DNA from: Prorocentrum cordatum
Taxonomy: Eukaryota
DNA: 64,000 nt
Assembly: GCA_963575745.1 (NCBI GenBank)
Contig: CAUYUJ010000130.1
Span: forward strand, 1 to 64,000
Direction: 5' to 3'
This document shows, piece after piece, positions 27,835-57,493 of the stretch. A program made the position numbers and the translations under genes. The notes under the pieces were generated by a model, which saw only the letters and a program-made list of their open reading frames with translations, was not told the DNA's origin and ran no database searches. The stretch's first letter is position 1, and the number at the start of each line of letters is the position of its first letter.

Positions 27835-27867
27835 TTTCAAACATCAATCATAAACTATATGGGATTT

Positions 27868-33960: not shown

Positions 33961-34120
33961 ATCGGGCCGAGCCAGCCCGTCCCTGCTACCCTCGCATTCC
34001 TGCGTTCTGAGCCGCCTGCACGGTTGTGGGCGCCAAACCTCCGCTGCTGCCTCCTCCTCCTGCAGTCGCTGCTCCACCTCCCTTTCTGCCCTTGGCCCCC
34101 CCCCCTTGCTGGCAGCAGCC

Positions 34121-35190: not shown

Positions 35191-35298
35191 GCGCTGGCAC
35201 AGCGCGCCCCCGCACGCCGACCGAAGGGTGAGGCCGTGGCCCCCCGCACAGCACACTTGGCTACTCGAGCCGAGGTTGGGAAGTTAAGGAGCAGGCCC

Positions 35299-35320
35299 CT
35301 TGAGCCAAAATGGCTACGGT
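35299..35320 (-). other. Exact dinoflagellate spliced leader (ACCGTAGCCATTTTGGCTCAAG)
   Basis: 22/22 match to the DinoSL consensus. Confidence 0.97.
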
Positions 35321-37180: not shown

Positions 37181-37280
37181 NNNNNNNNNNNNNNNNNNNN
37201 NNNNNNNNNNNNNNNNNNNNNNNNNNNNNNNNNNNNNNNNNNNNNNNNNNNNNNNNNNNNNNNNNNNNNNNNNNNNNNNN
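37181..37280. other. Assembly gap (100 N)
   Basis: Run of N; contiguity across it is not guaranteed. Confidence 1.
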
Positions 37281-38020
37281 CTGAAATCTGACCCCTTCCG
37301 CCCATCCGTCACCATTGCGTAGAATTATTATGCATCCGCCGATGGGTGTCCTAGCCGACCTGGATCCCTCAAGTGATCCCATCGTGTGACGCGCATCGGA
37401 GGGGGAGCAGGAGCCCGCAGATGAGCAGGATGATGAGCACGATGAAGATTAGGATGAGGACATCGGAAGATCAGGAGCAGCAGGAACAAGAGCAAGAGCA
37501 GGATAAGTGTGAGGAGCAGGGGGATGCGAAATATGGGGAAGGAAGGAGGTGGCAACGAAGAAGAACCGAATGATCAAGACACATAGCCCGCGCTGGGGAG
37601 AGAGCGCCAAACTGAACGACGCCGGCAAAACGTTGATCCTGAAATGCGGACAACGATGTAGCAGGAGCACGCTTCTCGAACGGTGGATAACGTTATGTGG
37701 GGACAGTGTCAGATTGAACGCCAGTTCGAACACTCTTGCGTGTAACATGAGTAGGTGAGATAGGTGGGGAAACAATTCAGAGCATCATGGGAGAGAGGGT
37801 CGCACTAATCATATTGCGTAATTTTGGAAGGAGAGGTACATCCCGGGGGTCGGAGTCCGAGTTGCCATGTGACCTCACAGCGAGGGGAAGTGATTTGGGA
37901 ACGAGGGGTGAAGCCGACTTTATTACCTAACAGCGAAGACTGATAGGTTTCTAGTTGACTCAAAAGAGCTCACAGATCACTCCACAGGGGGGTCCGGGCA
38001 GGCGTTGGGAGTTGCCGGCC

Positions 38021-38324
38021 GACTTGAAGGGTAGCTCTTTGGGAGATGTTACAGTATCGGGAGCATAGCTCGCGCGCCGCTGCCTTGGGCTCAAGGCACG
38101 CGCGCCCTATTTGCCCGGACACCGCGAGTGTTCGCTATGTGCTGGAAAGATCATTACATCGATCTTATCCTATCTTATCCGCCCACCCCTCATACTGTAC
38201 CTTCACAGCTACAGCAGAGCGATGGACGCTATTTGCCATCCGATGTCCACGGTCGGCGCCTTGGAATCGGATGCTATATGACAGGCTATATGCCCTATTT
38301 GAGTTACCAAGCTCACTTTCGACT
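38021..38324 (+). repeat. 5' LTR
   Basis: Direct repeat of 53815-54118, about 5 substitutions by eye. Confidence 0.93.
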
Positions 38325-41300
38325 TGGTAGCGGAGCTGGCCGCACTCTCGTGTGGTCAGCTCTTGCTCTTCTCAGCCTCACATTCTTCGGCACGATCTTC
38401 GTGACCGCCTACTACCCTGCGCCACCACTCCCAGTACATTTACGAGGATCTGTTCAAGAGCAAGAAGCTACACGAGAGGTACGACGTCTAGACGACCAGA
38501 TTGGTACCATATACGCTTCATCATTGCGTTACTATCAACCGCTCGGCAACGAGCCAATAACGCAATACCTGAAGCTAGGGCGGGGAAACCCGCCAGACAG
38601 AGCGCCTCGAAGACTCGACAAGGCGCTACCCCAGCGTGACACCGCTCATCATAACCATTCTTCGTTACACATTCTTGGGCTAATCGTTTTCGCTATCATA
38701 TGGTTCGCGCTGGGGGCAGCAATCGCACACATGCGTCGGGGAGATAACAGCACCGATGGGCAAACACATGGCCCATACTGGGACCCTCAGGGTAATGTAA
38801 CTTTTCGTGAGTACATTTACGAGGTCAACGCGTGGCTCAACGTTACAAGCGGACGTATGACGCCACAGGCCCAAGCGGCCGCAATACAACGCGGCCTGGG
38901 AGGCCTAGCGAGGACACTCGCCATGAGGGTACCGCCTGACATTATAAACTATGGTGCTGACATTGATGGGGTCCACACGGACCCAGTAACTTACATCATG
39001 TTCCTCCTCAGCATGAAGTTCGAACGCCTGGAAGATGAGCGACAGTTCACTTCCGGCACACAACTCATCGACTTCCATGTGCCTCACGGGGAACGAATCG
39101 ACGTCACTCTTACCCGATTCGAAATGGCCCGACTTGAGGCACAGTCGGTGGGATTCGACCCTCCTAACTTCCAACTGCTAACTACTATCCTATTCCGCGC
39201 CTTAGGCGTCGGCAGCCAGAAAGCCATGCAACTCTCGCAGCCACTCAACCACCAAATGCCTCGAACACAACAACAATATGATGAGTTGCTGGAAAGGATG
39301 CGTTCGGTAGGTCACCTATCCGAACGATCCCCTGGCAACGTAGGATCCGTGTTTGAAAGAGGAAGGGGATCTGGTAGTGGAAATTTCTACACTACCTTGA
39401 CTATTGAAGTCCAGCCTGGAAACGGGCCCTCAAACATATGGGCCGATGACCCAGGAGAATCCATTGCTTTATTAGCAGGGGGTCGATCACAACCAAGCTG
39501 GGCAACCAGCCCTCCTTCTAGAGAACCACAACCACACCGCTCGTTATGGGGGGAATCAAATCCCCTAACCGACGGTGTATCCACTTATTTAGGAGACGAA
39601 GATTTCGATTCCGGCACCGACACAGACACTATATCATCAGATGGTGTTGAAGCTCTAGATTGGTCAGATATCATGAATATGGATAACGACAATCAGCGTG
39701 CTGAGCATTTATTCTGGCTGTTACAACAGGCTAAGCGAAGGTGGAGGAGGTTCGCACGAAAACCAGCGCGTCGTGTTAGAAGGAGGATACGCAGAAGTTT
39801 TAAAGGAAAGGGTAACGGCAAGCGTGGTCGTCGGAGGTTGAACGGGCGAGGTATCGCGGCATTTCTCCAGAGGCTCTCAGATGAACAACATGATGAGATA
39901 TTCTTTGGGGGAAAAGGCCGCGGTAAAGGCCGTGGAGAGACCTCAGGGAAAGGCAAAGGTAGGCGGGGGAACCCGCGAGGTAGAGACGGCCAGGTTCTCA
40001 AATGTCATGGGTGTGGTAGTACCGATCATCTTGTGCGAGATTGTCCAGCGAAGGGAAATGGAAAGGGCGTGTCGTCCGAAGTCCATTTCGGCTCAAGCAC
40101 ACCATCCATTGAGTATCTGAGCCTCCAGGACTTTGAGGCTATGGAACAGATATTTGTCACATGGGTCGTTGGCATGGACAACGTTGACGAGCTCGAGGGG
40201 TATGGTCATGGATTATACGCGTATTACCTCGAGTACGTCCGCCGGTTCGTCACGGGCAGTAATGAACTCACTCCCGTGGAACACGGTACGCTCGGAAACG
40301 AGCCTCTTTCCTTCTTCGACTGGATGTTCGGGAACCCAGGCAACATCATGGCCTACGAGAGCGACGGCGAGGACACCACTATAGAGGCTTCGCCTTCCGA
40401 GGTTCAACAGAACCTCGAACCTCCGCCCGAAATCCCGCCTGGACACAGGCCTTTTCTGCTGGGAGAATATCCCCATACTATTGAAGACTTAATTGAAATG
40501 GAGTCTCAAGCATTTGTTCAGGCCTTCATTGCAGGTGAACCAGGTTCTCCGTTCATACCTCCTGGTTCGCTTGCTCCAGGCGAATATGGGCCGCGTACAC
40601 TTTTGCAGACCCTCATGTGGATGCATGAGATACTTGCAATTGCATATCCTGAGAGTCAAGAACAAATTGAAGCTGGTATTATGACAGATAATGATAATGA
40701 TGCTTGCGGTAGCTCAGAGCTACTCTTGGCAGCGTTGTCTCTCATCGACAGTATAAATCCTCAGGAAGTGCAGCGACACTTAGTATACTCCCATGGTAGA
40801 TGGCGTCGTGCCCTGGAAATGGCAATGGCTATGCGTGGTCATGATCTTCCCCCGCCAGGATGGAATCTCCAGGAGCTGGGGATGAGGCCAAACCACACGG
40901 CCATGCGTAACATTGCTAGGCAGCCTATGCTCGTCGAAGACCCTGAGCCGACGACTGCGCCTCCTACTCCAGGGCAGCCGAGTGACGGCCAGACGCCGGC
41001 CATGCAGGGAAACCTGCCTTTACCAGATGCGCCAATGGCCATCCTAATTGGTAGTTCGACATCAGAAGAAGTAGAAGGCGATGGTTGTGGGTTAGATGAG
41101 GATGACGTCACCATCCTCATGATGGACGTGACTGGTGAGGAAGAGGTCGATTTCGACCCTGATGAGTCTGAACCATCATCACCATCGGCACAAGAGCCAC
41201 TTGCGCCGAGCTCCACCCAGCAGGGAGACCTGCCTCCATCGAGCGATCCACCCGGGATCGCAGAGGAGCCTCCTCAAGCACCTCCAACGGGTGCCGCCCC

Positions 41301-44300
41301 TGCTGCATCAGCAGCCTCTTCTGATGAGAACACCAGAAGATCTCGTTCCCATACGCGCGTCAGAGGAGAGCCACATCTTCAGGCTCGACTCCCTCGTGAT
41401 TGGAGACAGGCTGGCCCAAAGGAACACGCTGCCAGAAGAGGTGGCCAGCTACTTCCATACAACGACCCACGACGCCGAAAAGGGGAACACTCGGCCTTCG
41501 GCCAGGGCAATCCTGCCTATAGGGACGGCGATGGCAGACCCATCCGTGGAGGCTATCAGCTCGCAACAAACATCCGCCGCCCTGAAATTCAAGAAGCGCG
41601 GACCCAGTTGCGAGATATTATCGCGGCTCGCAAGCAGTATAGGCCTCACGCTGCATGTGGTCCTTGTTCCCAGCCGTTCCAGAATCACAGGCCAGGATGC
41701 CCCGTTGGAAACAACGAAGGCCTGAGCCCCAACAGGGGCAAAACCCCTCCTAAGGAGGGCCATCCGCCACTTGACCCGATGACACCGGAAGAGATCGCAG
41801 CAGTGAGTAGTCGTCTCGGGATCTTGGGCCACTTGGATCCGAAAGAAGAAGAGAAATCTACTCCGGCTCCAAGGGGAATGGTAGCCATGACCCAGGAAGA
41901 GAAAGACGCGCTCTTTAGTCTTCCTGGTATGCGAGGAAACTCGCCTGGCGTATCTAGCCAGTCCCAACAACCAGAGCCGATCATCGAGGACGAGACAAAG
42001 GCTCAACGTGTGGCGGAAGATGAGGAGCGTATTCAGACAGTAGATGAACGCACACGCGAGGCAACTCGCAAGATGCTGGAGGATTCCAGCAAGCTCTACA
42101 TAAAGGGGGCTAGAAAGCCCCCACTCCCACTAACTTCGAAGGCCAAGAGTGAACCCCCGACACCTAAGCCGCCTCCGGCGCCGAAACGCACAGCTCCTAT
42201 ACCAGCATCTGTGCCCAAGCAGCAACCCCCGGACCCCACTGAGGAACGAAGACGTTCGCTTAGCCGCAGCAAGTCCATTGCGGAACGGGCGGCAGCTTTC
42301 GAGCGCAGTGAGTATGCACCTGCGCCAGCTTCGCCTGTGGCGGCTCGTTCCAGGAGGTCCGATGAAGGTGCTATGTCGAGGGGTAACTGGGTGCCGAAGA
42401 TCAGGGGCAGCGCCAGTCGCGCATCTCCGCGGGGAAACCCGCCAGGCGCTGCTGCCGCAGCTTTCTCCTCTTCAGGAGCCGCAGCCTCTTCAGCAACAGC
42501 GGCTCCGATGCGGGGAAACCCGCCAGCAGTTCAGCTGCACCACCCAGGAGACACATCCTTCACTAGTGGGACTCCAGATCTGATCAGGGATAGACTGGCA
42601 CTTCGGAAGCTCCCACCGATACGTTCGGTGGATGAGCCATTCATGAAAGAATGCAGGAAGGCCGGAATTCTTTCCAGATCCAATGATACTCTTAAAAGGT
42701 TAAGCAAAGCTATCAGCAGGATCTGTAGACATGCGCCAGATAAGCCACATAATTCTGTGTGGCGCCTGAAATCTTTTGATGATCATGATGGTTGGATCAA
42801 CCTCGTGGACCTCGTGGAGAACTTTCCTTGGAACACAAGTCACTCGAGGCACGCTTATGAAGAGGCCAAAGTTATTAGCGAGCAGTTGTATGGTCGCTCG
42901 GTTGACCAACTCGCAGCCATCATGATGGAAGTTGTTCATGTTCGTGAACCAGACGGAGAAGAAAAACAGCGCCTTCAATTCAAGGTGCTAATGCGGGACT
43001 CTGGCGAGCCTGCTATCTTCGTCCGCGCCTCTCAGGGGCATTCATGGAAATTGAAAGCTCCATGGTCGCTGTACAGCTACATTGTACTGTGCGACGAACC
43101 CGCCGGGAGACCGGCCAAATACCCTGAAGTCGCCATGCATGGCACTCGATGGCACGCTTTCGAAGGCATTATGTGGCACGGCCTGTCCTGTAGACCTGAG
43201 CACAACACGATGAAAACGGGGACAGGCCGTTCACACATCCACTTCGTGCCGACATTGCGCCGCCGTGCCGTGAACAGTGGGTGGGACCCAGAATCAGACA
43301 TCATCTTTGTAGATTGGCGCAAGGCCATACAAGATGGTATAAAGTTCTGTTGGTCCGATAACGGAGTCCTCTTGTCCGAGGGAGATAACGGTATCATTGA
43401 ACCGTATTACATTTCCCATGTAGAGGACCTGACCACTGGAAGGCAATGGCGCAACCCAGAATATTTGGGGATTCGCCGTGCGCGAGTCTCTGTCAGTATG
43501 ATGACTGCCCCAGATAGGTGGGCTGATGTTGGTGATTCCAGCGTTAAGTACAAGTGGTCCCGAGACCAAGAGGGCGTTGATCCAGCCATGGTCTACCTCC
43601 ACAGGGACGTTGGGGACCACTACAGCCCCACCCAGCTGGGAAACCAGCCTGAGATCTTTCGGATCTTTATGATCACCGAGAGTGAGGCCGGGAGCGCGGC
43701 TCCAAGCCGTGCCCCAAGCCAAGGGCCGAGCGCCGTATCTTGGCAGGCCATAAGTACTTCAGACCTGGATCAGATTGCAGCTGCGCTGAACCCTGACCAG
43801 GTAGAACAGCTGGCGGACAGGCTGTACCAGCAGGACCCCTGGGCCGCAGGCCAGGGAGCCATGTCCGCTATGGCCACGAGAAATCGTCAAGCCATGCAGG
43901 GAAACCTGCCTACAAGCGGACCTGCTCGGTTCGAGCCAATGCACGCAAGCCCCACACAGAGCATGCACACTCCAAGGGGCATGACTCCAGCGGGCACTCC
44001 GCCAGCACAATCCCCATTTGGGACACCTGTTCGCCCTGCAGTAAACTGCACACTCATGGAGAGGTTAGCTGCGGCTAGGGCTGATCACAGCACAGCCCTC
44101 CTCAACATGATGCCGCCCGGCACGCCAACGAGTCAGCAAGGAAACCTGCCTGGTACACCAAGCCACCGCAGGGCAGGTATACCCGACGACTATCGCTCAA
44201 GAGTGGCGGCCGCGGTACAGCAGGTGCAGAACCATAATCTGCCTCACCCAAGTGGGCAGAGGTGGAGGCCAGCCTGGTCCTGGGAACCGGAGGGTCCCAA

Positions 44301-45441
44301 CCCACGGGACCCCGCTCGGCAACGAGCCTTTATCCCGGCGTTCAACGCCCATCCGAGCATGTCTCAGGGCCAGAGGCCACCACCCACGCAGATGAATCCG
44401 CCATTATACACTGACGGTACAAGGGTCCCGAACAAATTTGTTCGGGAATTGGCGGATCAGATGCATAACCTCACCAATGCGCGCTGCAGTGACCACTCCA
44501 TGTACCCGCACATGGCCTTCATGCCTCCTCCAACATCACCAGAGGTGGTTGTACAACCCACTGCCCATTCAATATCGTCTGGCAGTAGGGGCGTGCCTGA
44601 CTACATCAGGCAGACGCACCACACTCAGCAGGCATGTTTCATGAGGAGGCAGGCGGTGCAAAGTGTACGGGACCAGTCACGTGCAGCTGCACTCGATGTG
44701 GCGCGGAATAGGGGCTCACCTTTGCGAGGAAACTCGCCCGCCGTGACTCCTACCACTTCCATGCCAAATGTCGAAGGGCCGGAGGTGATGGACCTAACGG
44801 GGACTCCCCCATCAGCCTTCATGCCCTCCGAGACGGTACTGGAGAGGCAGCGGCGGGTATATCCCAGGGTAGCAGACGTAGAAGTCTTTACTGGGATGGA
44901 GGACACCTGTGCAGTATGCCTCGAAGAATTTCAGCCCAGGGATAGTGTGTATCGCCTGAGGTGCAATCACCTATTCCACGAGGGATGCTGGAATTCTAAC
45001 GTGGTGGGCCACGTGACAAACCAGCGTGAGGGAGATCCACAGCAGCCACCATGTGCGATCTGTCGTGCACTTGGCATTATAACATCGTCCTTCCCATGGA
45101 CTGGCTCCCTTAGTCAGACTCCCGAGCAGTCAATGAGGGAGCTGCGGGAGCTAAGGAGCATGGTGGAGGAGATGACGGCCAGGATGCTAGCTATGCAGAC
45201 AGCTTCGTCACACCAGCAGGGGCACCTGCCTGAAGAGGTAAGGCCGCCTATGGCAACGGGATATTTCGATCAGCTTATCCCGATGACGGCGCCTCAGCAG
45301 GGAAACCTGCAGGATACTCCTCAGATGTCTCCCAGAGTGGAGGCGAGGTTGAGATGTCATTGGACCCTGATCAGCTGCGCGAGTTGCGTGTACGACATTT
45401 CCAGAATCAGATGGATAATACACACACAACGTTTATGCTAG
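38128..45441 (+). CDS. Giant Gag-like ORF (2437 aa): 2 hydrophobic helices, Gag core, Arg-rich tract, CCHC knuckle, Tpt1/KptA domain, RING-H2
   Basis: Uninterrupted ORF with zinc knuckle CHGCGSTDHLVRDC at 40003-40044. The true start is uncertain (in-frame ATGs at 38278, 38290, 38731). Confidence 0.85.
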   Translation: MFAMCWKDHYIDLILSYPPTPHTVPSQLQQSDGRYLPSDVHGRRLGIGCYMTGYMPYLSYQAHFRLGSGAGRTLVWSALALLSLTFFGTIFVTAYYPAPPLPVHLRGSVQEQEATREVRRLDDQIGTIYASSLRYYQPLGNEPITQYLKLGRGNPPDRAPRRLDKALPQRDTAHHNHSSLHILGLIVFAIIWFALGAAIAHMRRGDNSTDGQTHGPYWDPQGNVTFREYIYEVNAWLNVTSGRMTPQAQAAAIQRGLGGLARTLAMRVPPDIINYGADIDGVHTDPVTYIMFLLSMKFERLEDERQFTSGTQLIDFHVPHGERIDVTLTRFEMARLEAQSVGFDPPNFQLLTTILFRALGVGSQKAMQLSQPLNHQMPRTQQQYDELLERMRSVGHLSERSPGNVGSVFERGRGSGSGNFYTTLTIEVQPGNGPSNIWADDPGESIALLAGGRSQPSWATSPPSREPQPHRSLWGESNPLTDGVSTYLGDEDFDSGTDTDTISSDGVEALDWSDIMNMDNDNQRAEHLFWLLQQAKRRWRRFARKPARRVRRRIRRSFKGKGNGKRGRRRLNGRGIAAFLQRLSDEQHDEIFFGGKGRGKGRGETSGKGKGRRGNPRGRDGQVLKCHGCGSTDHLVRDCPAKGNGKGVSSEVHFGSSTPSIEYLSLQDFEAMEQIFVTWVVGMDNVDELEGYGHGLYAYYLEYVRRFVTGSNELTPVEHGTLGNEPLSFFDWMFGNPGNIMAYESDGEDTTIEASPSEVQQNLEPPPEIPPGHRPFLLGEYPHTIEDLIEMESQAFVQAFIAGEPGSPFIPPGSLAPGEYGPRTLLQTLMWMHEILAIAYPESQEQIEAGIMTDNDNDACGSSELLLAALSLIDSINPQEVQRHLVYSHGRWRRALEMAMAMRGHDLPPPGWNLQELGMRPNHTAMRNIARQPMLVEDPEPTTAPPTPGQPSDGQTPAMQGNLPLPDAPMAILIGSSTSEEVEGDGCGLDEDDVTILMMDVTGEEEVDFDPDESEPSSPSAQEPLAPSSTQQGDLPPSSDPPGIAEEPPQAPPTGAAPAASAASSDENTRRSRSHTRVRGEPHLQARLPRDWRQAGPKEHAARRGGQLLPYNDPRRRKGEHSAFGQGNPAYRDGDGRPIRGGYQLATNIRRPEIQEARTQLRDIIAARKQYRPHAACGPCSQPFQNHRPGCPVGNNEGLSPNRGKTPPKEGHPPLDPMTPEEIAAVSSRLGILGHLDPKEEEKSTPAPRGMVAMTQEEKDALFSLPGMRGNSPGVSSQSQQPEPIIEDETKAQRVAEDEERIQTVDERTREATRKMLEDSSKLYIKGARKPPLPLTSKAKSEPPTPKPPPAPKRTAPIPASVPKQQPPDPTEERRRSLSRSKSIAERAAAFERSEYAPAPASPVAARSRRSDEGAMSRGNWVPKIRGSASRASPRGNPPGAAAAAFSSSGAAASSATAAPMRGNPPAVQLHHPGDTSFTSGTPDLIRDRLALRKLPPIRSVDEPFMKECRKAGILSRSNDTLKRLSKAISRICRHAPDKPHNSVWRLKSFDDHDGWINLVDLVENFPWNTSHSRHAYEEAKVISEQLYGRSVDQLAAIMMEVVHVREPDGEEKQRLQFKVLMRDSGEPAIFVRASQGHSWKLKAPWSLYSYIVLCDEPAGRPAKYPEVAMHGTRWHAFEGIMWHGLSCRPEHNTMKTGTGRSHIHFVPTLRRRAVNSGWDPESDIIFVDWRKAIQDGIKFCWSDNGVLLSEGDNGIIEPYYISHVEDLTTGRQWRNPEYLGIRRARVSVSMMTAPDRWADVGDSSVKYKWSRDQEGVDPAMVYLHRDVGDHYSPTQLGNQPEIFRIFMITESEAGSAAPSRAPSQGPSAVSWQAISTSDLDQIAAALNPDQVEQLADRLYQQDPWAAGQGAMSAMATRNRQAMQGNLPTSGPARFEPMHASPTQSMHTPRGMTPAGTPPAQSPFGTPVRPAVNCTLMERLAAARADHSTALLNMMPPGTPTSQQGNLPGTPSHRRAGIPDDYRSRVAAAVQQVQNHNLPHPSGQRWRPAWSWEPEGPNPRDPARQRAFIPAFNAHPSMSQGQRPPPTQMNPPLYTDGTRVPNKFVRELADQMHNLTNARCSDHSMYPHMAFMPPPTSPEVVVQPTAHSISSGSRGVPDYIRQTHHTQQACFMRRQAVQSVRDQSRAAALDVARNRGSPLRGNSPAVTPTTSMPNVEGPEVMDLTGTPPSAFMPSETVLERQRRVYPRVADVEVFTGMEDTCAVCLEEFQPRDSVYRLRCNHLFHEGCWNSNVVGHVTNQREGDPQQPPCAICRALGIITSSFPWTGSLSQTPEQSMRELRELRSMVEEMTARMLAMQTASSHQQGHLPEEVRPPMATGYFDQLIPMTAPQQGNLQDTPQMSPRVEARLRCHWTLISCASCVYDISRIRWIIHTQRLC
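38325..38336 (+). promoter_or_regulatory. Primer-binding site TGGTAGCGGAGC, probably for initiator tRNA-Met
   Basis: Begins immediately after the 5' LTR. TGG pairs with tRNA CCA, and TGGTAGC fits the 3' end typical of eukaryotic tRNAiMet. Confidence 0.8.
42691..43425 (+). CDS. TPT1: RNA 2'-phosphotransferase (Tpt1/KptA/TRPT1) domain within the Gag ORF
   Basis: Motifs in order: LSKAISRICRH, DGWI, KQR, VRASQGHS, HGT, GL, RSHIHF, IFVD...DGIKF..SDNGVLLSEG..G.I.P.Y. Confidence 0.9.
44908..45066 (+). CDS. RING-H2 (C3H2C3) finger within the Gag ORF
   Basis: CAVCLEEF...LRCNHLFHEGC...PCAICR; all eight ligands present. Confidence 0.88.
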
Positions 45442-46947
45442 ATGCCAATAATCCTGAAACTGATAGTCCGTCGTTAGACCTATCAGAATCCTCAGCGGCG
45501 TCAGCAGCAGCAGCCAGAGCCGTCAACATCTCAGCGGCGAATGAGGAGTTCGAGGAGTGGCTGCGGTACCGGGATCACGTCATGAACGAAGGGCTGCAAG
45601 ACATCGCCCTTCACTCGTACCTAGCGCTGATAAGGCGCACTACCCGCGAGCAGTATATGAGCATACGTGATGAGTATGCCAACTGGCGGGGGGAGCGTGG
45701 TGATCACGCCCAGCACGTGTCGTACTTCCAGTACATTGACCTGGCACGCATGGCCGAGAGCGAGTCGCATGCCAGTGTCGTGCGGGGTAACCCGCCAGGG
45801 AGTGCGAATGTGCCGCGGGGAAACCCGCCTACCGACGCAGCCGACACTTCAGAAACTGTGCACATCAAGCAGCCGAATAAGACGTTCTTGGATGATGGTG
45901 GAAATTCCATACTCATCGACGTCGGTTCGAAGATCAACATCATGGGCGAGAACACGAGCCGTAAGTTCGTTCAGGTTGCTGAGTCACATGGTCGTGCATG
46001 TACATTCGAGCCCCGCTCTCGTTTGCATATCAACGGAGTGGGAGAGGGGTCGGCCCCAGCGGATACTGCAGGCACATTTAGCATTGCCTGCGAGTACCAG
46101 GGGTCAGCCCAACACGATTCATACAAGACGAACATTGTGTCAGGCTTTGTCCTGTTTTGAATTTCTATTGCCGGTCCTGTTCTTTGTTTTTTGTGTTGTG
46201 GTCTTGTGGACGTTGGTTTTTTGTTTTTATGCATTCTGTTGTGTTCTTGTCGTTGTTCTTGTCTTTTTGGGGCCCCGGTTTTGTGGAAAGGACCTGCCAG
46301 CCATCCTAGGTCTCGATAGTATGCAGGACAAACGCACGATCATCGTGCTTGAACGAGGCCAGGAAAAGCTGATATTCCCGGGTAAGGGGCAGGTCAAGAT
46401 GGAGCTCCCGGAAGGCTCCAAAATCATGCCGACGACGAAGTTGCCGTCAGGGCATCTGTCGATCAGGTGTGATCGTTTTGGAGCTGCGGGGCAACCCGCC
46501 TCGAGCTCAAGCAGCACGTCCTTCCAGACAGCGCTGACAGGCGAGCCGACCCCAGCGCAGGAGCGCAATCAATTGCAGGGAAACCTGCCCCAGGGGGTGA
46601 TGGAGACGCTCGCCAAGGCCACCATGCGAGGCGACAACATCGACGATCTCGAGACGTTCGAGTGTTTTGTTGCCAGGACACTGGCCCTGCATGGTGGTAG
46701 TGTACCCATGGACGCTGTGCAGTCCCGCCGTAAAATAGTGATGGGATACACTAATCGTGAATTGCATACGGTCAGCGACGCTAGGTCCAAAGGCGCGCTG
46801 AAACAGTTGATGGATAATCCATCGATGCTGACAGCATTTGCGGAGCAATCCGCCGCTGAGGCCACGGCGCGCTGCAGCGCTGAGCTCCAGCATCTGAGGG
46901 AAGCCCAGATGTTGGCAGATATTGTAGGCACATCTTCTTCATCTTGA
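45354..46947 (+). pseudogene. Aspartic protease region, interrupted by a 136-bp T-rich insertion (46146-46281)
   Basis: ILIDVGSKINIMG (Asp at 45918), HINGVG and PAILGLDSM. Removing the insert restores NIVSG-CGKDLPAILG in frame. Confidence 0.8.
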
Positions 46948-48336
46948 AGATGGCAGGGCGACGTCGCCCCCTCGTCGTCTTGCCTGATGGCTGAAAAGCC
47001 GGGGGGTAACAAGGACAGCGGGGCAACCTTCCTTAGTAAGAGGGCTTTTGTCATTGAAGATACGAGGGAGGCATGTGCCGACCTCCGCACACGAGGTTAT
47101 ATGTGTGACCGTATTTCCCACAACGAACTTATGACAAGCGTGGGCACAAACTATCTAGGTGCGGTGATCAGTGGAGATTACACTCTCATATGGATCAGTA
47201 CTCCGGGTGACTGGTATATACGAACTCCAGGAAAGAGAGTGGCCCCACACTGGTCACGTATCCAGAACCTGTTGGTAAAAGCCAAGAAACTCCGCATGAA
47301 AATCATCATATTCGGTCCCCCAGGATATGTTTGGAAGTTATCTCCAGTACGTGATACTCTGGAAGATCTAAAGTTGTCAGTAATACTGATGCGTTTGTGT
47401 CATTTCGGTATTCGGTTCAATATGCAAGACAATACACCAAGTGGTACATATATGCAGGTAGCATCATCGATACCGATTAGCTCGAAGCTGTGGACATGTA
47501 CCTGTAAGCAGGCCATACCACAACATGTGTTGGACTGGTACGGCCATACGGTACGACATGCTGAATGGCGGGCTCAGACACGTACTACACTCATCCGTTA
47601 CCTAAACGACAAAATCCTGGGGAGTACCACCACGCACGGAAACGTGCCCGTATACTTAGATACGTATACACGTACAGACCATAATACTCGTCATTACGTG
47701 ACTACTCATAAAGGAGGACCAAAATGGTCTGAAGTTATCCGACGTGTAACAATCAACTTGGATACCAACGCGGTTATTCAAGATATCTCAGTTACCGATC
47801 AACCAACAGGGTATGATTGGCATGCACCATTACCTGCAGGGGTTGCCAACATCAGTACTCGGTTGTATTGGCAACCCGAGAAACCGGTCTTGCTCGGAAA
47901 CGAGCCTACTCAATCACCACAGAAACATAGACGCGTCATCATAGATGACTGTTCTCTCCCCCTCCCGACTCTGGCGATTGACGCATGTACCCATTCCACC
48001 ACGACAATGAGTACACAGACCGACGAACAAAACGAGCAAGCTTTACCCACTGAGTTGCGTATAAAGCAGAAGGAAAGGCTCAAAGCCGAAAAGGAAGCAG
48101 GCATCAAGCCTCGCCGCATTAAAAAGCACGTCGAAGACGGAAATGACGATTGCGGCGACGACTTGTCAGGACTCGGACAGGATCTTATGGCAACCTGGAG
48201 TACTGACGCCCCTGTCGAGCTGATAAGCTCCGACGAGGGCGAGGACCTGTTCCTTGCCCCCCCCACATCTATGCCCGACACACACGCTGACATATACAGC
48301 ATAGTTGCTACACTATGCTATGGCCATAACAATTGC

Positions 48337-48960
48337 GTGGATATGTTGGAGCTTTGTGGTGGTGAGGGTGGCATCTCAGAGCTTGCCTTCTCAAGGGGAC
48401 TGTCCTCAGGCGGCAACTTGGACAAGACTACATATGTCGACCTGGGAGACCCCTCGGTGCAGCAGGTGGTAGATCACTACTTCAAGATATGCTACGTACG
48501 AGTTGCCATACTGCAACCCAGCTGCCGCACCACAGGACCACCATCTTACTATAACTACAAAGTCAACTATAACACTTGGGAACAGCACCACAGAGAAGAC
48601 TTACCACACATAATCTATTGTGGTAGAATTGCTGTTACCCAAGATGACGCTCAGAGGTGGTTTATACGCGAACAACCGACAGGAACATGGGTGGACGATA
48701 TTTCTCCATGGACGAAGCTTACCGACCGACCACACATCACGACCGTACGCATTGATCAATGCGCTACTGGACTTAAAGATACGACTGGTGACTATATTAA
48801 GAAGCCGACAAATATCACCAGCAACGACAAGACAATTCTTTAACCCTTTGAGCGACTCAAGTGCAACGGTCAGCATGTGCACGCACAACCGTGCAACACC
48901 GAGCTTTCACTGGCACAAAAATACACTCGACGACTGCAGTCTGCCTTCGTGGAAGCCGTC
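48337..48960 (+). pseudogene. Cytosine-C5 DNA methyltransferase-like domain (in-frame TAA at 48841)
   Basis: MLELCGGEGG (motif I-like), ILQPSC (catalytic PC-like), FIREQP (motif VI-like), DQC..GL, KKPT, C.G.H.H and AQKY. Confidence 0.65.
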
Positions 48961-49740
48961 TACTTGGCGAAAGCCATTGACACCACGCGCGGAAACGCGC
49001 CTATAAATACTGCACATGCTTATCCTGCCGACCTTCCTGAGCAAGCTGAACTAGGTGAAGGTATGAGACGCATCGGTGATCGTATCATCCCAAAGGTGGC
49101 TACGTGCCCGGCATGCATCGACAACGTCCGAAAGGACAGTCCTAGCCATAACAGGGACCCTACGCAGTGCAAATATCATGACTCTATCTCTGTATACTGG
49201 CCATGTCCAGCATGTCAGAGGGATCTTACGAGAAGCAAGGGTGTTAAGAATCACCTTGATACCGAACCTGGTAAATGTCGTTTTGCTGAACCATTTAAAC
49301 TACCAGACGACCACGACCCCGAAGGCAAAACCGTGCCAGCTTGGTGGGAACCCTTACCTAAACCTGGTGAGGGCCAAGCTTCAGCTTCAGGTGGCCGCCA
49401 AGGCGCACACGCCAGGCCACCACGACCACGTTCCTTCGGTAACGTCGATCCGACATCTGGTACCAGCAGCTACGACCTGCTACGACACGCCCCCGAGCGT
49501 GAAAACACGCCTTCTGCGTCTTCTAGCGATACGCCACAGGTAGCGGCCCGCCGCGGACGTCTACAAGGCGTACCACCACCTCCAGACGCAGTCAACACAG
49601 GGGATCAACTACGCAGAGCTACAAGGAACCCCCTTGCCTCCACCGGCTCTGGGGCTCCACGACTACCCGACTGGACGAGATTTGACATCCAACACAGTCT
49701 ACAGAGTCTCCGTAGTCACGAACCCCATGTTGTGAAAAAA

Positions 49741-50420
49741 GGAACTCCGAAAACTGCATCTGCGATGGTATCATGCGAAGGAGCCAAAGATGAGGCTAAT
49801 CCTCGAAAAGGTGGGGCTTGATAACGTTCGACTGAACATGATCAAGGAAATATGCGACACCTGTCGGGAATGTAGAGCATGGGAACGTCCAGGAAACTCG
49901 ACATTACCATCGGTAAGCCTCCCTGGCAACTGGCTCGATGAAGGGGAAATGGACCTCATGTTTTACAAGAAACGGACCATATTTCATGTTATGGATCGTT
50001 GTATTCGCTTGACAGCAGGCCTTGAAATTTCCGACAGAGAACGCGACACAATCATCGATGCCTACCACTACTGCTGGATTGCCTATCACGGACCCTTCAA
50101 AGTTTTATACTCAGATGGAGAAGGCGCCCTGAATAATGAGGCCGCTAAAAGCATGATGGCCAATAAGGGCGCGGAACTTCGTATCCGAGCACCGGGCCAA
50201 CACGCGACTTCAATTGAGTCACGAAACGGCATTCTCAGAGGCGTCCTCCACATGATTGAGGAAGAATTGAATACACACAACATCCCTGTTGTATTCACTA
50301 GAGTATTGGCGGAAGGCATCTTCGTTACTAATGCGTTTACGTTTTATAACGGAGTATCGCCATATCAGGCACAAACAGGACGTCAGCCCTCCTTCCTTCC
50401 TGATCTCGATACCCTTGACT
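49741..50420 (+). CDS. Integrase (HHCC + DDE core)
   Basis: Upstream of the track ATG, the frame reads ELRKLHLRWYH...CDTCREC. Core motifs EMDLMF, YSDGEG and IESRNG. Confidence 0.85.
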
Positions 50421-51759
50421 TTCCCAAGGGACCCGAGACTTCAGGACACGAACGAGAACGTCGTGTAAGGGAAGTCAGCCTCGAAGCCATAACTCAGGCT
50501 ACTGCTGTAGCCAAGACAAATCGGGCTCTTAGGGCGAAGACGACTCCTGATGGTGCTCGCCTCTACTCATCAGGGGATTTGGTCGACTACCACCGACCTA
50601 CTGCCACCAAGGACGACCATGGAGGCTGGAACGGCCCATTCCCGGTGATCCGAAACGTGCCTGTAAGAGGACATATTGTTGTCAAGGCAGGATCTCGTGA
50701 GGTAATTGTGATGTATCCTGATGCTCGTCACACACTATACATCGAATGTCTCCTCACGCGGGAACTTGGCATGGATAACATGGCCATGCAAACCGTCCTT
50801 GCCTATGTGGCACATCTCAGTGCAGGGAAACCTGCCAAAGTTTTCGGGTATATTCCCGACTACAAGGGAAACCTTAACCTGTCAGACGATAGCAAGTTTC
50901 ACCCGCGCGCACACCTAGCACTACAGTATCTCGTACGAAATTACTTCAGAGTGGAACATGTAGTAGCAGTTCGATTGGCTAAGAGTGTGTCAAGCCTACC
51001 TGCAGTAAAGTACGCCACCGGGTCTACGCTGATCCACTATGACAATGACATTAGCCCGGCGTTCCACTACTATGAATGTGTGGGCACCGGCCTAAACATC
51101 TCTCAGATTACTGGTAGCACTCACTCCAGACTTATTCAATGCTTGACTTCACGTGTCCCTTCCTTAGGATTTCACGATGACCTGGCTAAATATCAGCATC
51201 CAAGCAATACGTCTGGAGAACACGAGTCGCCTGGAAACAGGCCTTCTCCAGACACACCAGATGCTTCATCGCCTAGCGAAGGCCGTCTGTCGACAATCTA
51301 CGAGGAAGATGAGGAACACAATATCGAAGCCATGATGCTGGAAGAGTGGTACGACGAACTACGTATGGACCTTCATCCTACGACGATTACAGATGATTAT
51401 CTCTATTGCGTCCCAACAACTATGCTGCCTAACCAATGCGTTTTGGTTTCAGCATTTGCGGACGAAGATGATATTACATCATCAGATATGCTCGGAGACG
51501 AGCCTAGATTATGTGAGTCTTGTCTGGTATCTCTTTGTTCGAACACAAACGACGAGAGCTATTCCCTAGACAGTGATGAATATGGTCCTTACGTTGAACT
51601 ATGCTTTACATCAGAAATGTCAAAAATAGTGTTGGATCAGACCCAACTTGCACAGCTCGATACCGATATGGTCGCAACGATGAGAGTATATGTATCCAGT
51701 GCTGCTAAACGTGCTGTGGTTGTCAAAGAAGATGACCTACTGACCAAAGCCGACATAGC

Positions 51760-53355
51760 AGCACATCCAAAGGAGGTTAGTGAAGCCTTATATACTGAGC
51801 TCAAGATCTGGATTGATAACCGATGCTTTGAGATGTACGACTTATCCAAAGCTTCCAACATCATGACATCCAGATATGTATACAAGTGGAAGTTCGTAAA
51901 GATGGGCACCGAGAACGTTAAAACCATTCGTCTCAGATTGGTCCTTCGTGGAATTATGGATACTGAGGCCTTTGATGTGGAAACATTCTCGGGAACCGCC
52001 CGAAGGCAGTCTCAACGACTCTTGGCAAGTGAAGCGGCATGTCATCCAGAGTGGATCTTAGCATCCATGGATATCGATAAGGCATTCCTAAAAGGTTTGA
52101 CCTACGAGGAACTTGCCCATGCCACTGGCGAGGAAACTCGCATGGTCTGCTTTACTCTTCCACCAGGAAGCGCTCAGGTACTTCGTGCCCTACCCGGCTT
52201 CTCATCCTACGACGAAAGTCGACGCTGTCTTAGGTGCCTCAAACCAGGAACGGGTACTAAGGACGCCCCAAGAGCGCTCTTTCTCAAATTCGTACGACCA
52301 CACGAGCTATAGGACTTTCACCGACTAGCTACGATCCTGAATTTGAATTCAGCCAATATCTTCTGACTGCAAAACATGTCGATGACATTAATATGACAGG
52401 TCTAGAGAAAAATATCGACGACTATGTACAACGCGTCGAAAAGGTTTTTGGCAAATGCAAGCTCAACAAGCACACATATACGAACTGTGCCGTCCGCTAC
52501 ACTAAGAATGATCAGGGAGATGTGATCATGGACCTGGACGAGTATATCAAACAACTACGTCCCATCACACATCCAGAACTTACAGGAGCGGCGGCCGACG
52601 CCAAAGCCACGAAACTTATTACCGACATGTTCGTCAGCCTGCGAGGAGCCCTCGCCTATGCCCTTCTTATTCAAATCTGGCTTATGGTATATGTGGTCTC
52701 TCTTCAGAAAATTCAAGAGCCCACCAATTTACAAGTCAGCCGTTTGAATGCTGTGACGCGAAAGCTGATCAGCAGTCCGAAACGTATCACCTTCCCTCGG
52801 ATGAAGCCGACGAATGAAGTCGACATCCATAGCGATTCGGGATATCGGAAGCTTACCGGGGAGGAGGATGACGAGACCAAGGGCTACGGCATTCGCGGGG
52901 CCAACGTACTACGGCGAGGAAACTCGCCTCAAGGCAAGTCCGTCGTTCGTGACGGACAATGCAAATCACACCGATTACAGGTGAGGTCCAGTTATGCTGC
53001 GGAGGCACTTGCAGCCGCACATAAACTTGATGAGTGTTACCCTACGCTCATTACTCTCCATGAGCTTAAGGCAGGGGCCTTGACTCCACGACAACTACGA
53101 GATATGCGTGAAGTTGGAGGCCTTGCTATCAAAGTCTCTCTGACCATAGACGCTGAGTCCGTCTACAAATATTTATCAAGCAGGGATCTCAAAATACCCA
53201 CAGAACGGACTCTGCTTGGACATATCAGTTGGATACGTGAGCTTATGGATATAGGTATAGTACATAACGTGCAATGGTGTGATACTAGGGATATGACCGC
53301 AGATGGGCATACAAAGGGAAGCATCGATCGGGAGCTGCTTCTGGAAGTGATGTAA
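51760..53355 (+). pseudogene. Copia-type reverse transcriptase and RNase H (frameshift near 52285)
   Basis: RT: SRYVYKWK, RLRLVLRG, MDIDKAFLKG, GTKDAPRA, then in the next frame KHVDD (~52375). RNase H: HSDSG, RSSYAAE, IDAESV, WCDTRDMTADGHTK. Confidence 0.9.
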
Positions 53356-53814
53356 GGCACTCAGTCATTTAAGTATGACGTGAAGCAATTTGTTCCCTTT
53401 CGGGGTCCCGAGGACAGAGACAAACCCAAGTCTAATCAATTTTAGTCTGTCCTTGTTGCCCTCGCGGTCCAGTTTGCCAGCACGGGCGCCTATTATAAAG
53501 GCGCCCCTTTAGCTGCTCGGAAACGAGCCTTATATTTCACGCCTGGCAACGAGCCGGCTTCGTACAACTCAGGCTCTTTGCCTTAATACACATTTGCTTG
53601 GTGAGGTATGGCTTAATTTTGGCTTACCTCTAACTGAGCCGATAGCCCTTCATTGTTTGAAGGGGCTGTCCTGTATTTGCGTGAAATACTTTGCGAGGAA
53701 ACTCGCCTTACATTCTGGCGTTTGGCCAGTTTGTACGCACTGTTTTCATTTCTTTGCAAACAGTCGTGCGCGCGAATTTTGCGTGCGACTATGCTCTCCG
53801 TCTCCTCCCCTCCC

Positions 53815-54118
53815 GACTTTAAGGGTAGCTTTTTGGGAGATGTTACAGTATCGGGAGCATAGCTCACGCGCCGCTGCCTTGGGCTCAAGGCACGCGCGCC
53901 CTATTTGCCCGGACACCGCGAGTGTTCGCTATGTGCTGGAAAGATCATTACATCGATCTTATCCTATCTTATCCGCCCACCCCTCATACTGTACCTTCAC
54001 AGCTACAGCAGAGCGATGGACGCTATTTGCCATCCGATGTCCACGGTCAGCGCCTTGGAATCGGATGCTATATGACAGGCTATATGCCTTATTTGAGTTA
54101 CCAAGCTCACTTTCGACT
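53815..54118 (+). repeat. 3' LTR
   Basis: Direct repeat of 38021-38324. GGCC flanks the element on both sides (38017-20, 54119-22), a possible TSD. Confidence 0.93.
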
Positions 54119-55123
54119 GGCCGGGCCTGTGCCAGGCTAGTTTTTCACCAACAGTCACACACTTCGTGCTCGTCGACCTCTCAGAACCCCACTCCCAGGC
54201 CACATTCTGAATAACCGGATGCAACAGTCACACACTTCGTTCTCTTCGACTTCCCAGAACTCCATTCCCGGGCCACATTCTGAATGCCCGGAGCCAACTG
54301 TACGCCACTTCGTGCTCTTCGAGTCCCCAGAACTCCATTCCCGGGCCACATTTTGAATGCCCGGAGCCAACTGTAGGCCACTTTGTGTTCTTCGAGTTCC
54401 CAGAACTCCATTCCCGGGCCAGATTTTGGATGCCCGGAGCCAACTGTAGGCCACTTCGTGGTCTTCGAGTTCCCAGAACTCCATTCCCGGGCCAGATTTT
54501 GTATGCCCGGAGCCAACTGTAGGCCACTTCGTGGTCTTCGAGTTCCCAGAACTCCATTCCTGGGCATGAATTTGAATGCCCGGAGCCAACTGTAGGCCAT
54601 TCCCGGGCCAGATTTTGGATGCCCGGAGCCAACTGTAGGCCACTTCGTGTTCTTCGAGTTCCCAGAACTCCATTCCTGGGGATAAATTTGAATGTAGGCC
54701 ACTTCGTGTTCTTCGAGTTCCCAGAACTACATTCCCGGGCCACATTTTGAATGCTGAGGCAGGCTGAGGCTGAGGCTGAGGCAGGCTGAGGCTGAAGCAG
54801 GCTGAGGCTGAGGCTGAGGCAGGCTGAGGCTGAGGCTGAGGCAGGCTGATGCTGAGCCAGGCTGAGGCTGAGGCTGAGGCAGAGGCAGGCTGAGGCTGCG
54901 GCTGAGGCAGGCTGAGGCTGAGGCAGGCTGAGGCTGAGGCTGAGGCAGGCTGAGGTTGAGGCTGTGACTGCGACTGCCGTTGCCGCTGCGACTGTCATCG
55001 CGAATGCGACTACGACTGCGAGAACAGCAGAATTCTACAACTGGATTTTCATCTGAATCTTAAGAGGAATGCTTTCAGATATGCTTCTACACATCGCTGT
55101 TAGGTTGCTTTGCCGGGATAATT

Positions 55124-57476: not shown

Positions 57477-57493
57477 TGTGTGTTTATTATTAT

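What the first reader, a model, noticed from the sequence alone, without database searches (positions are those of the whole stretch)
38021..54118. Element as a whole: a 16-kb Copia carrying RNA-, protein- and DNA-modifying enzymes
Seen: one polyprotein region combines Tpt1, RING-H2, methyltransferase-like domains and extra Zn fingers with Gag-PR-IN-RT-RH, about three times the usual Copia size. The LTRs differ at only about 5 of 304 positions, so the insertion is fairly young. Inference: a virus-like counter-defence/self-regulation toolkit, with the hairpin array possibly helping to package the oversized RNA.
Basis: inference. Interest (0 to 1): 0.72.

Follow-up and report, generated by a model that had tools for sequence, protein, structure and literature searches.

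The report
Giant dinoflagellate Copia with enzyme cargo
This is a real but damaged copy of an unusually large Copia-type jumping gene of a dinoflagellate that carries an RNA-repair-type enzyme, a RING finger and a pair of DNA-methylase-shaped domains, splits its protein in two at a conserved stop codon, and has about 35 tiny matching hairpins along its RNA strand.

Summary
Real element, not a chimera: LTRs 38022-38324 and 53816-54118 (5 of 303 differences), 5-bp target duplication, and an independent marine contig (L028) with the same Gag-Tpt1-RING-protease order. The host is a dinoflagellate (perfect spliced leaders in the window). The TGA at 46945 matches a stop followed by a covarying stem in relatives, probably read through. 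The other breaks are specific to this copy. (2) The cargo is layered, not one toolkit. The methyltransferase-like pair, the extra Zn fingers and the RING are clade-wide. Tpt1 is restricted to one sub-lineage and lies downstream of a spliced-leader relic, suggesting capture from a host mRNA. Both methyltransferase-like domains fold as C5-DNMT cores. The second keeps the catalytic Cys and Glu; the first lacks them (DNMT3L-like). A published survey said Symbiodinium Copia lack DNMTs. The 33 sense-strand GNRA hairpins (0.5 expected) covary and look selected as RNA; packaging is plausible but untested, and a link to element length is not shown. LTR ends are not TG..CA, and a C-rich tract replaces the polypurine tract. 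No activity is shown.

The parts
38017..38021 (+). target-site duplication GGCCG (left)
   Evidence: target is a host repeat also present uninterrupted at 55123-55260
38022..38324 (+). 5' LTR, 303 bp, begins ACT and ends ACT (not TG..CA)
   Evidence: same termini motif in relatives
38077..38095 (+). worn spliced-leader (DinoSL) copy in the LTR (also 53871-53889), probable start of R
   Evidence: P about 0.02 here; best match starts at LTR position 40-76 in 13 of 15 distinct LTRs
38325..38336 (+). primer-binding site TGGTAGCGGAGC, directly abutting the LTR; initiator-Met tRNA type (inferred from an A1-U72 acceptor, recalled)
   Evidence: same 12-mer in most relatives
38035..46944 (+). ORF1 (about 2,920 codons; broken in this copy near 45330 and at 46146-46281): N-terminal extension, Gag, linkers, Tpt1, RING-H2, protease, about 130-aa unknown tail
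   Evidence: intact in L028
38671..38727 (+). hydrophobic, membrane-helix-like segment just before the capsid core
   Evidence: a segment at this place in 9 of 14 Gag-bearing sequences scanned (W, L028, L027, L032, P0026, P0027, P0029, P0019, P0022, plus P0058 slightly further up)
38773..40047 (+). Gag capsid-like core, basic region and CCHC knuckle
40076..40097 (+). internal DinoSL relic right after the Gag knuckle, at the start of the long cargo region
   Evidence: score 31 vs null max 27 of 200; same place in L028; absent in L027, L039/L041, L042
42694..43383 (+). Tpt1/KptA RNA 2'-phosphotransferase domain, catalytic motifs intact
44902..45066 (+). RING-H2 finger
   Evidence: 10 of 14 relative ORF pieces
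45900..46470 (+). aspartic protease (D-V-G-S motif at 45918), interrupted in this copy
46146..46281 (.). 136-nt T-rich stretch specific to this copy (lesion or assembly error)
   Evidence: skipped by contigs of 3 of 4 runs; 76 T, 6 A, no second copy in the window
46945..46984 (+). conserved stop codon (TGA here, TAG in relatives) followed by a 10-12 bp stem: candidate readthrough signal
46948..53355 (+). ORF2 (about 2,135 codons; broken at 48841, about 49735 and about 52288 in this copy)
   Evidence: relatives' ORF2 about 1,950-2,160 aa and open
47035..47600 (+). domain A: C5-DNMT fold without catalytic Cys/Glu (pseudo-enzyme)
48337..48975 (+). domain B: compact C5-DNMT-fold domain with ExCGG, PxC (Cys at 48523) and EQP; cut by TAA 48841 in this copy
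49105..49281 (+). two tandem CxxC..H..C zinc fingers
49736..51200 (+). integrase (HHCC, DDE core)
51821..52810 (+). Copia-type reverse transcriptase (RVT_2; HVDD)
52819..53355 (+). RNase H
38541..53706 (+). dispersed array of 33 strict (38 relaxed) GCNNG-GNRA-CNNGC hairpins, none in the LTRs
53800..53815 (+). C-rich pyrimidine tract where a polypurine tract is expected
53816..54118 (+). 3' LTR
54119..54123 (+). target-site duplication GGCCG (right)

Best explanation
A decayed copy of a multi-copy, Ty1/copia-type retrotransposon family of a dinoflagellate, whose cargo was added in layers and kept because it helps the element replicate. Shown: anatomy, folds, conserved residues, conserved stop plus stem, hairpin selection. 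Inferred working model: ORF1 (Gag, Tpt1, RING-H2, protease) is made in bulk. Occasional readthrough of the stop at 46945 gives the low-abundance Pol (pseudo-DNMT A + DNMT-like B + Zn fingers + IN + RT/RH). B, helped by A in the manner of DNMT3L and DNMT3A, methylates cytosines of the new cDNA inside the particle so that it looks like host DNA. The sense-strand hairpins are family-specific Gag-binding marks for picking the right RNA. RING-H2 removes or modifies a host or particle protein. Tpt1 was captured later from a spliced-leader-bearing host RNA and repairs or caps nucleic-acid ends in the particle.
For: Not a chimera: L028 has Gag-Tpt1-RING-PR in one open frame; 4 runs cover 30 of 30 bins. 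Stop: in frame at the same place in W, L002, L004, L006, L008 and L027; the stem behind it is 91% paired, 7 of 10 pairs change on both sides, 0 of 500 shuffles reach it; no Met is conserved after the stop. Domain B: pLDDT 94; the 10 best structural matches are all C5-DNMTs, Z 9.6-11.7, rmsd 3.6-4.7, 180-207 aligned; Cys 90 of 91, Glu 93 of 94; 4,119 clusters; 17 of 17 hits long enough carry an IN zinc-finger motif downstream. Domain A: pLDDT 92; best match DNMT3L Z 9.7, rmsd 3.6, 163 aligned, tied with Dnmt2, HhaI and DNMT3B. Hairpins: 33 vs 0.5 expected, 31 in coding vs 1.6 after synonymous shuffles; 9 stem pair combinations; G-U variants in L028; built in place by recoding RT, and compensatory at 52919. 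Tpt1: motifs intact, nearest solved structures are eukaryotic TRPT1; SL relic at the cargo start in both Tpt1 bearers and in none of 4 knuckle-bearing loci without it.
Against: No activity of any domain is shown. SDR dehydrogenases score Z 9.5, close below the DNMT rows, and Foldseek-PDB gave no E<=0.001. B lacks a target-recognition domain and has KxT where RxR is expected (my mapping). The element is barely CpG-depleted (o/e 0.88), giving no trace of self-methylation. In L039/L041 ORF2 is in the -1 frame after the stop, and five sister proteins have no stop. In Candida Tca2 a similar UGA plus structure did not direct readthrough in a reporter (PMC2194720, abstract). The covariation rests on 6 related sequences. 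Hairpin density does not clearly track length. The SL-relic argument rests on 2 elements, and Tpt1 lies 2.6 kb downstream of the relic.
Confidence: 0.55

Rival explanations
1. Unified virus-like counter-defence toolkit: Tpt1, RING and the methylases act together against host silencing and nucleases.
For: All three module types keep their catalytic or ligand residues. A sister lineage carries yet another domain with an HxD..H motif ahead of the DNMT pair (the 2OG-Fe/TET-JBP label is recalled, no Pfam hit). 5hmU silences dinoflagellate TEs (PMC11572971, passages).
Against: The modules have different distributions: the DNMT pair and RING are clade-wide, Tpt1 was seen only in W and L028. Most relatives replicate without Tpt1. 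No host target is identified.
Confidence: 0.2
2. Pol is not made by readthrough but from a separate RNA (trans-splicing or splicing at the TAG|G, or an internal start), and the stem is a splicing or initiation signal.
For: TAG|G resembles a 3' splice acceptor in 5 relatives. L039/L041 have the TAG but ORF2 in another frame. The host trans-splices all mRNAs. Tca2 precedent (PMC2194720, abstract).
Against: This copy has TGA, not an AG acceptor. Six elements keep ORF2 exactly in frame. No conserved Met follows. The stem starts 5-7 nt after the stop, the spacing of readthrough signals (recalled for MLV).
Confidence: 0.2
3. Domain B acts on RNA (genomic RNA or primer tRNA, Dnmt2-like), or both domains are non-catalytic nucleic-acid-binding modules of integrase.
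For: No target-recognition domain; Dnmt2 structures tie with DNA enzymes; KxT in place of RxR. A LINE-borne DNMT failed to methylate DNA in yeast (PMC5890265, Discussion).
Against: Near-invariant Cys, Glu and SAM motif argue against a dead enzyme. The closest predicted folds are compact viral proteins annotated as DNA cytosine methylases.
Confidence: 0.2
4. The hairpins are DNA-level protein-binding sites or neutral by-products of repeated short duplications.
For: They are perfect interrupted palindromes with fixed outer bases, and GAAA-loop DNA hairpins are stable too (recalled).
Against: 33 vs 1 strand bias. Loops stay GNRA while changing amino acids. G-U pairs are tolerated. At 52133 the motif arose by substitution in a conserved RT segment, not by insertion.
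Confidence: 0.12
5. Chimeric assembly or nested insertions created the cargo.
For: This copy has at least 5 breaks, including a T-rich stretch that may be an assembly error; no single record spans the whole element; long reads were not tested.
Against: The same order occurs in L028; the family hairpin is spread evenly through cargo and core; matching LTRs with a target duplication; ORF2 is collinear with 15 relatives.
Confidence: 0.03

Closest known systems
Ty1/copia elements of Symbiodinium (SmTCL1-4; PMC5776459, first half of the text read)
   Same: IN upstream of RT and RH, LTRs, about 10 kb, dinoflagellate host; named Symbiodinium relatives at 35-41% in the integrase search
   Different: The part read describes no DNMT-like, RING or Tpt1 domain, no internal stop, no hairpins and no unusual termini; figure 1b and supplements were not seen
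DNMT-bearing retrotransposons SymbioLINE-Dnmt, SymbioDIRS-Dnmt3, KnitGypsy-Dnmt3 (PMC5890265, passages and Discussion read)
   Same: C5-DNMT-type domain inside a retrotransposon, in Pol for the DIRS and Gypsy cases; cDNA methylation proposed
   Different: Here the carrier is Copia, which that paper says 'lacks any DNMT domain'. The domains are invisible to Pfam PF00145, compact, and come as a pseudo-enzyme plus enzyme tandem
DNMT3L-DNMT3A pair
   Same: A catalytically dead DNMT fold next to one with Cys and Glu
   Different: Analogy only: 9-12% identity, one polypeptide, contact between A and B not tested
Compact viral/phage cytosine methylase-like proteins (Tetraselmis virus 1 A0A2P0VN45, Lactococcus phage P087 C3U2K5)
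   Same: 210-250 aa, best Foldseek viral matches for both domains; nearest named Atlas clusters are viral PF00145 (0.87-0.88, leads only)
   Different: 10-15% identity; no PHROG match for the model sequence; origin not established
Candida Tca2 (Copia with gag-UGA-pol; PMC2194720, abstract) and MLV UAG readthrough (recalled)
   Same: In-frame stop followed by a short spacer and an RNA structure
   Different: Here the stop lies after the protease and cargo, not after Gag
Cellular Tpt1/TRPT1/KptA (PF01885)
   Same: RH, QR, RASQGH, HGT, RxHIH and SDNGV motifs present
   Different: Embedded in Gag-PR of a retrotransposon, with insertions; no such case surfaced in search 40
Dispersed packaging signals of ssRNA viruses (recalled, no call)
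   Same: Many short, degenerate, sense-strand stem-loops spread through coding sequence
   Different: Not found described for a retrotransposon (search 89); binding untested

Membership tests
Ty1/copia superfamily | Domain order Gag-PR-IN-RT-RH | tested here: met
Ty1/copia superfamily | RT of the RVT_2 type | tested here: met
   E 4e-6 for this broken piece, below cut-off; sister P0002 above cut-off, 32.5 vs 31.6. No tree with reference Copia RTs was built
Ty1/copia superfamily | Direct LTRs with a 4-6 bp target duplication and a tRNA PBS | tested here: met
   the tRNA identity is inferred, no tRNA gene in the window
Canonical LTR-retrotransposon cis signals (typical, not defining for Copia) | TG...CA termini | tested here: not met
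   ACT...ACT here; A(C/G)T...AC(T/C/A) motif in relatives; proven by an LTR pair only in this copy
Canonical LTR-retrotransposon cis signals (typical, not defining for Copia) | Polypurine tract next to the 3' LTR | tested here: not met
   C-rich tract here and in 18 of 20 loci read from RH end to PBS (15 by pattern by eye; L022 and L030 differ)
C5 cytosine methyltransferases (domain B) | Catalytic-domain fold | tested here: met
   model of the L004 homolog; margin over SDRs is 1-2 Z units
C5 cytosine methyltransferases (domain B) | Motif I glycine loop, motif IV Cys, motif VI Glu | tested here: met
   ExCGG 65 of 67; Cys 90 of 91; Glu 93 of 94
C5 cytosine methyltransferases (domain B) | Motif VIII RxR and a target-recognition domain | tested here: not met
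   KxT (76 of 83, 68 of 84) at the place inferred from motif order; 240-aa domain without a TRD. Hence 'works like', not filed under PF00145
C5 cytosine methyltransferases (domain B) | Pfam PF00145 match | tested here: not met
   no hit among 8, 24 and 27 proteins scanned
C5 cytosine methyltransferases (domain B) | SAM-dependent 5mC formation | not testable with these tools
   needs an assay
C5 cytosine methyltransferases (domain A) | Fold | tested here: met
   12 best rows are DNMT-family chains, Z 8.8-9.7; an SDR at 8.7
C5 cytosine methyltransferases (domain A) | Catalytic Cys and Glu | tested here: not met
   WISTP and FGPPG at those places
Tpt1/KptA | PF01885 above cut-off and catalytic Arg-His-Arg-Arg set | tested here: met
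   (the residue roles are recalled)
RING-H2 E3 ligases | C3H2C3 ligand pattern | tested here: met
RING-H2 E3 ligases | E2 binding and ubiquitin transfer | not testable with these tools
   needs an assay
Programmed stop-codon readthrough | Conserved in-frame stop with a covarying 3' structure | tested here: met
   6 elements; L039/L041 out of frame; five sister proteins without a stop
Programmed stop-codon readthrough | Fusion product made | not testable with these tools
   needs a reporter, ribosome profiling or proteomics

The most novel reading that the evidence does not exclude
A distinct dinoflagellate clade of Copia-like elements replicates by changed rules: plus-strand priming from a C-rich rather than purine tract, ACT-ended LTRs with the host spliced leader built in as R, RNA selection by dozens of family-specific GNRA hairpins, and a self-encoded pseudo-DNMT/DNMT tandem that pre-methylates the cDNA. 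It grows by capturing spliced-leader mRNAs (Tpt1) into Gag, much as retroviruses transduce host genes.
Probability: 0.3. Interest if true: 0.87.

Novelty: new variant of a known kind. Interest (0 to 1): 0.68.

Why it matters
If right, the most abundant retrotransposon class of dinoflagellates carries a hidden cytosine-methylase-like pair (4,119 sequence clusters match domain B) that a published survey reported as absent from Copia. That would add a fourth carrier class and a large candidate source for the odd dinoflagellate methylome. The element also offers directly testable novelties: a Tpt1 domain in a retrotransposon, a virus-like distributed hairpin code written into coding sequence, and LTR replication without a polypurine tract or CA ends.

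Tried and rejected
No own genome is held, so copies in this genome could not be aligned. Viral contigs: no relative. Sequence searches did not identify the DNMT-like domains: Pfam, PDB sequences (one search gave Dnmt2 at E 0.28 only), PHROGs. Profile-profile A vs B gave probability 0.2, so their paralogy rests on fold and motif order only. Rfam at gathering score: 0 matches in the element. No RNA holder listed. Complex prediction of A with B was not available; there is no result. CpG or CCGG depletion as a sign of self-methylation: CpG o/e 0.88; CCGG z -3.7 in codon shuffles but 37 vs 45 by Markov expectation and not consistent among relatives; rejected. Alternative LTR boundaries (TG start at 38048; CGACT as the target duplication) were rejected because relatives conserve the A(C/G)T start and ACT end. 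A green-algal host was considered because 24 of the 28 short Tpt1 hits come from a proteome labelled Pyramimonas sp.; rejected for this window because it holds two perfect dinoflagellate leaders. The label itself is unexplained (search 83: no paper). Hairpin number vs length: inconclusive, most loci are partial. Literature searches with no paper describing these features: 40, 41, 53, 54, 89, 95, 108 (open-access library only; supplements of PMC5890265 and PMC5776459 were not opened and could bear on the novelty claims). Tree (FastTree, RT C-terminus plus RH): L028 was left out as too short, and the single-ORF sister proteins lack that region, so the order of stop gain or loss is not resolved.
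Full report
1. Observation. Two direct repeats of 303 bp (38022-38324, 53816-54118) differ at 5 positions and are flanked by GGCCG on both sides. The target is a host repeat found uninterrupted at 55123. Five differences in 303 (1.65%) means young in relative terms; no rate is at hand for a date. Pfam finds a CCHC knuckle, Tpt1 (E 6e-21), a RING-H2 and RVT_2. Integrase HHCC/DDE, RT (HVDD) and RNase H are read directly and confirmed in relatives. The host is a dinoflagellate: two perfect copies of the published spliced leader (PMC6616646, passages) sit at the 5' ends of two LINEs in the window. Against this, the closest named Tpt1 fragments come from a proteome labelled Pyramimonas; I could not explain that label. 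The species was not tested.

2. Is the cargo real? Yes. L028, an independent metagenome contig, has one open frame of at least 2,653 codons with Gag, Tpt1, RING and protease in the same order. ORF2 is collinear with 15 relatives of 41-53% identity to the closest one, P0002. Contigs from 4 runs of 4 studies cover 30 of 30 bins. They show length differences at 45330, 49735, 52288 and 52948 and skip 46146-46281. Relatives also read through the TAA at 48841. These breaks therefore belong to this copy; whether they are biological or assembly errors I cannot tell. No record spans the whole element, one run may be the window's own source, and long reads were not tested.

3. Two ORFs, not one. Of the loci spanning the junction after the protease, L002, L004, L006, L008 and L027 have an in-frame TAG at the place of the TGA at 46945. 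L039/L041 have a TAG with ORF2 in the -1 frame, and L042 ends just after its TAG. Five 2,159-aa proteins of the sister family start right behind this place. A stem begins 5-7 nt after the stop: 91% of cells paired, 7 of 10 pairs changed on both sides, 0 of 500 shuffles (six related sequences, so suggestive); z -3.1 here. Five proteins of another lineage run through without a stop. Readthrough is the simplest reading. Tca2 shows that such a signal need not suffice (PMC2194720, abstract).

4. The methyltransferase-like domains. Sequence searches miss them, which would explain the statement that Symbiodinium Copia 'lacks any DNMT domain' (PMC5890265, passages). Domain B, modelled from the intact L004 homolog with 94 sequences (pLDDT 94), has C5-DNMTs as its 10 best matches (Z 9.6-11.7, rmsd 3.6-4.7, 180-207 residues); dehydrogenases follow at 9.5. 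Its best viral matches are compact cytosine-methylase-like proteins. Cys and Glu are kept in 90 of 91 and 93 of 94 rows, but KxT stands where RxR is expected and there is no recognition domain. Domain A (pLDDT 92) has the same fold, best match DNMT3L (Z 9.7, tied with others), without Cys or Glu. Among the 150 best hits of 4,119, 26 of 44 with room upstream carry A, and 17 of 17 with room downstream carry an integrase zinc-finger motif. The pair is thus an old, fixed part of Pol. Contact between A and B could not be tested.

5. RING and Tpt1. RING-H2 was found in 10 of 14 ORF pieces of relatives (three of the four misses are pieces upstream of that region), Tpt1 in 1 of 14. Tpt1 keeps its catalytic motifs and is closest to eukaryotic TRPT1 among solved structures. 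A worn spliced leader lies 28-31 nt after the Gag knuckle in both Tpt1-bearing elements. It scores 31 here vs a null maximum of 27 in 200, and 25 in L028, where it is read in another frame. It is absent at that place in L027, L039, L041 and L042. This points to capture of a trans-spliced RNA by template switching (inference, n = 2). Much of the extra length is low-complexity linker that aligns poorly even with L028.

6. Hairpins. There are 33 five-pair GNRA hairpins on the sense strand, 1 antisense, and 2 in 47.9 kb of flank; controls give 0.5 (max 4 of 200), and 1.6 after synonymous shuffling vs 31 observed. 31 fit GCNNG-GNRA-CNNGC with 9 different inner pair sets; 29 of 31 fold in local context, and spacing is slightly more even than random (P 0.03). 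At 52133 the motif was made by recoding a conserved RT stretch; at 52919 L001, L021 and L028 show the compensatory pair. L028 has 19, many with G-U pairs. L009/L032 use another stem, L027 another hairpin, and L039-L043 none above background. They are therefore selected, RNA-like and family-specific. Packaging is my best guess (about 55%). A link to length is not shown.

7. Cis signals. The PBS abuts the LTR and is read in frame within an N-terminal Gag extension that ends in a hydrophobic helix. LTRs start A(C/G)T and end mostly ACT; some relatives keep the inverted pair AGTCGA..TCGACT-like ends. A C-rich tract, not a purine tract, precedes the LTR in 18 of 20 loci read from RNase H to PBS. 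The boundary is proven by an LTR pair only here, and the pattern search required C-richness, so it is not independent. A spliced-leader relic sits at LTR position 40-76 in 13 of 15 LTRs; this test was prompted by an earlier scan note.

8. Mechanism and verdict. Shown: anatomy, folds, conserved residues, the conserved stop and stem, and selection on hairpins. Inferred: bulk ORF1 and scarce readthrough Pol; cDNA methylation by B with A as partner; hairpin-guided RNA selection; Tpt1 as a later add-on acting on nucleic-acid ends. 'Single polyprotein' is wrong, and 'toolkit' is better read as layered cargo. It is Copia by domain order and RT type, non-canonical in termini, plus-strand tract and recoding. 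Searches found no description of these features in the open library; supplements were not seen. Earlier notes of this scan report other 14-16.5 kb copies in the same genome with the same reading; they are unchecked and not independent support. New variant of a known kind; interest 0.68.

Noticed in passing
window 15626-21283 (-) and 29446-35319 (-): Two LINE-type elements (RVT_1 or endonuclease plus RNase H), each starting with a perfect dinoflagellate spliced leader preceded by (GGA)n; both are strongly CCGG-depleted (4 vs 27 and 4 vs 22 expected), unlike the Copia.
   Followed up: partly
P0058, P0066, P0137, P0152 (between protease and domain A): A sister lineage without the stop carries a conserved domain with HxD..H motifs, recalled as 2OG-Fe(II)/TET-JBP-like, ahead of the DNMT pair; no Pfam hit.
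   Followed up: partly
P0018, P0021: Relatives with a DnaJ domain after RNase H: the clade swaps cargo at several positions.
   Followed up: no
window 38347-38727: Gag has an N-terminal extension open from inside the LTR, with one or two hydrophobic helices and a Met often right after the last one; possible membrane anchor.
   Followed up: partly
window 46590-46944: About 130-aa segment between protease and the stop, absent from relatives whose stop follows the protease by 30-55 aa; not identified.
   Followed up: no
L004, L008, L010, L014, L048 upstream of the C-rich tract: A small GATC-NNA-GATC hairpin recurs just before the tract; possibly part of the plus-strand priming signal.
   Followed up: no
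window 37923-38021, 54119-58372, 26196-28366: The element sits in a composite host repeat: 99-bp unit, 73-bp satellite and (GCTGAG)-rich arrays, repeated in the window.
   Followed up: no
EukProt set labelled Pyramimonas sp. (P0183-P0205, P0210-P0212): It holds many 56-88% identical fragments of this family; mislabel, contamination or transfer is unresolved.
   Followed up: partly
L027: Near-complete 12.5-kb relative (circularly permuted contig) with its own dispersed hairpin motif and an unusually long Gag N-terminal extension.
   Followed up: partly
window 37181-37280: A 100-N scaffold gap lies 740 bp upstream of the element, outside it.
   Followed up: yes
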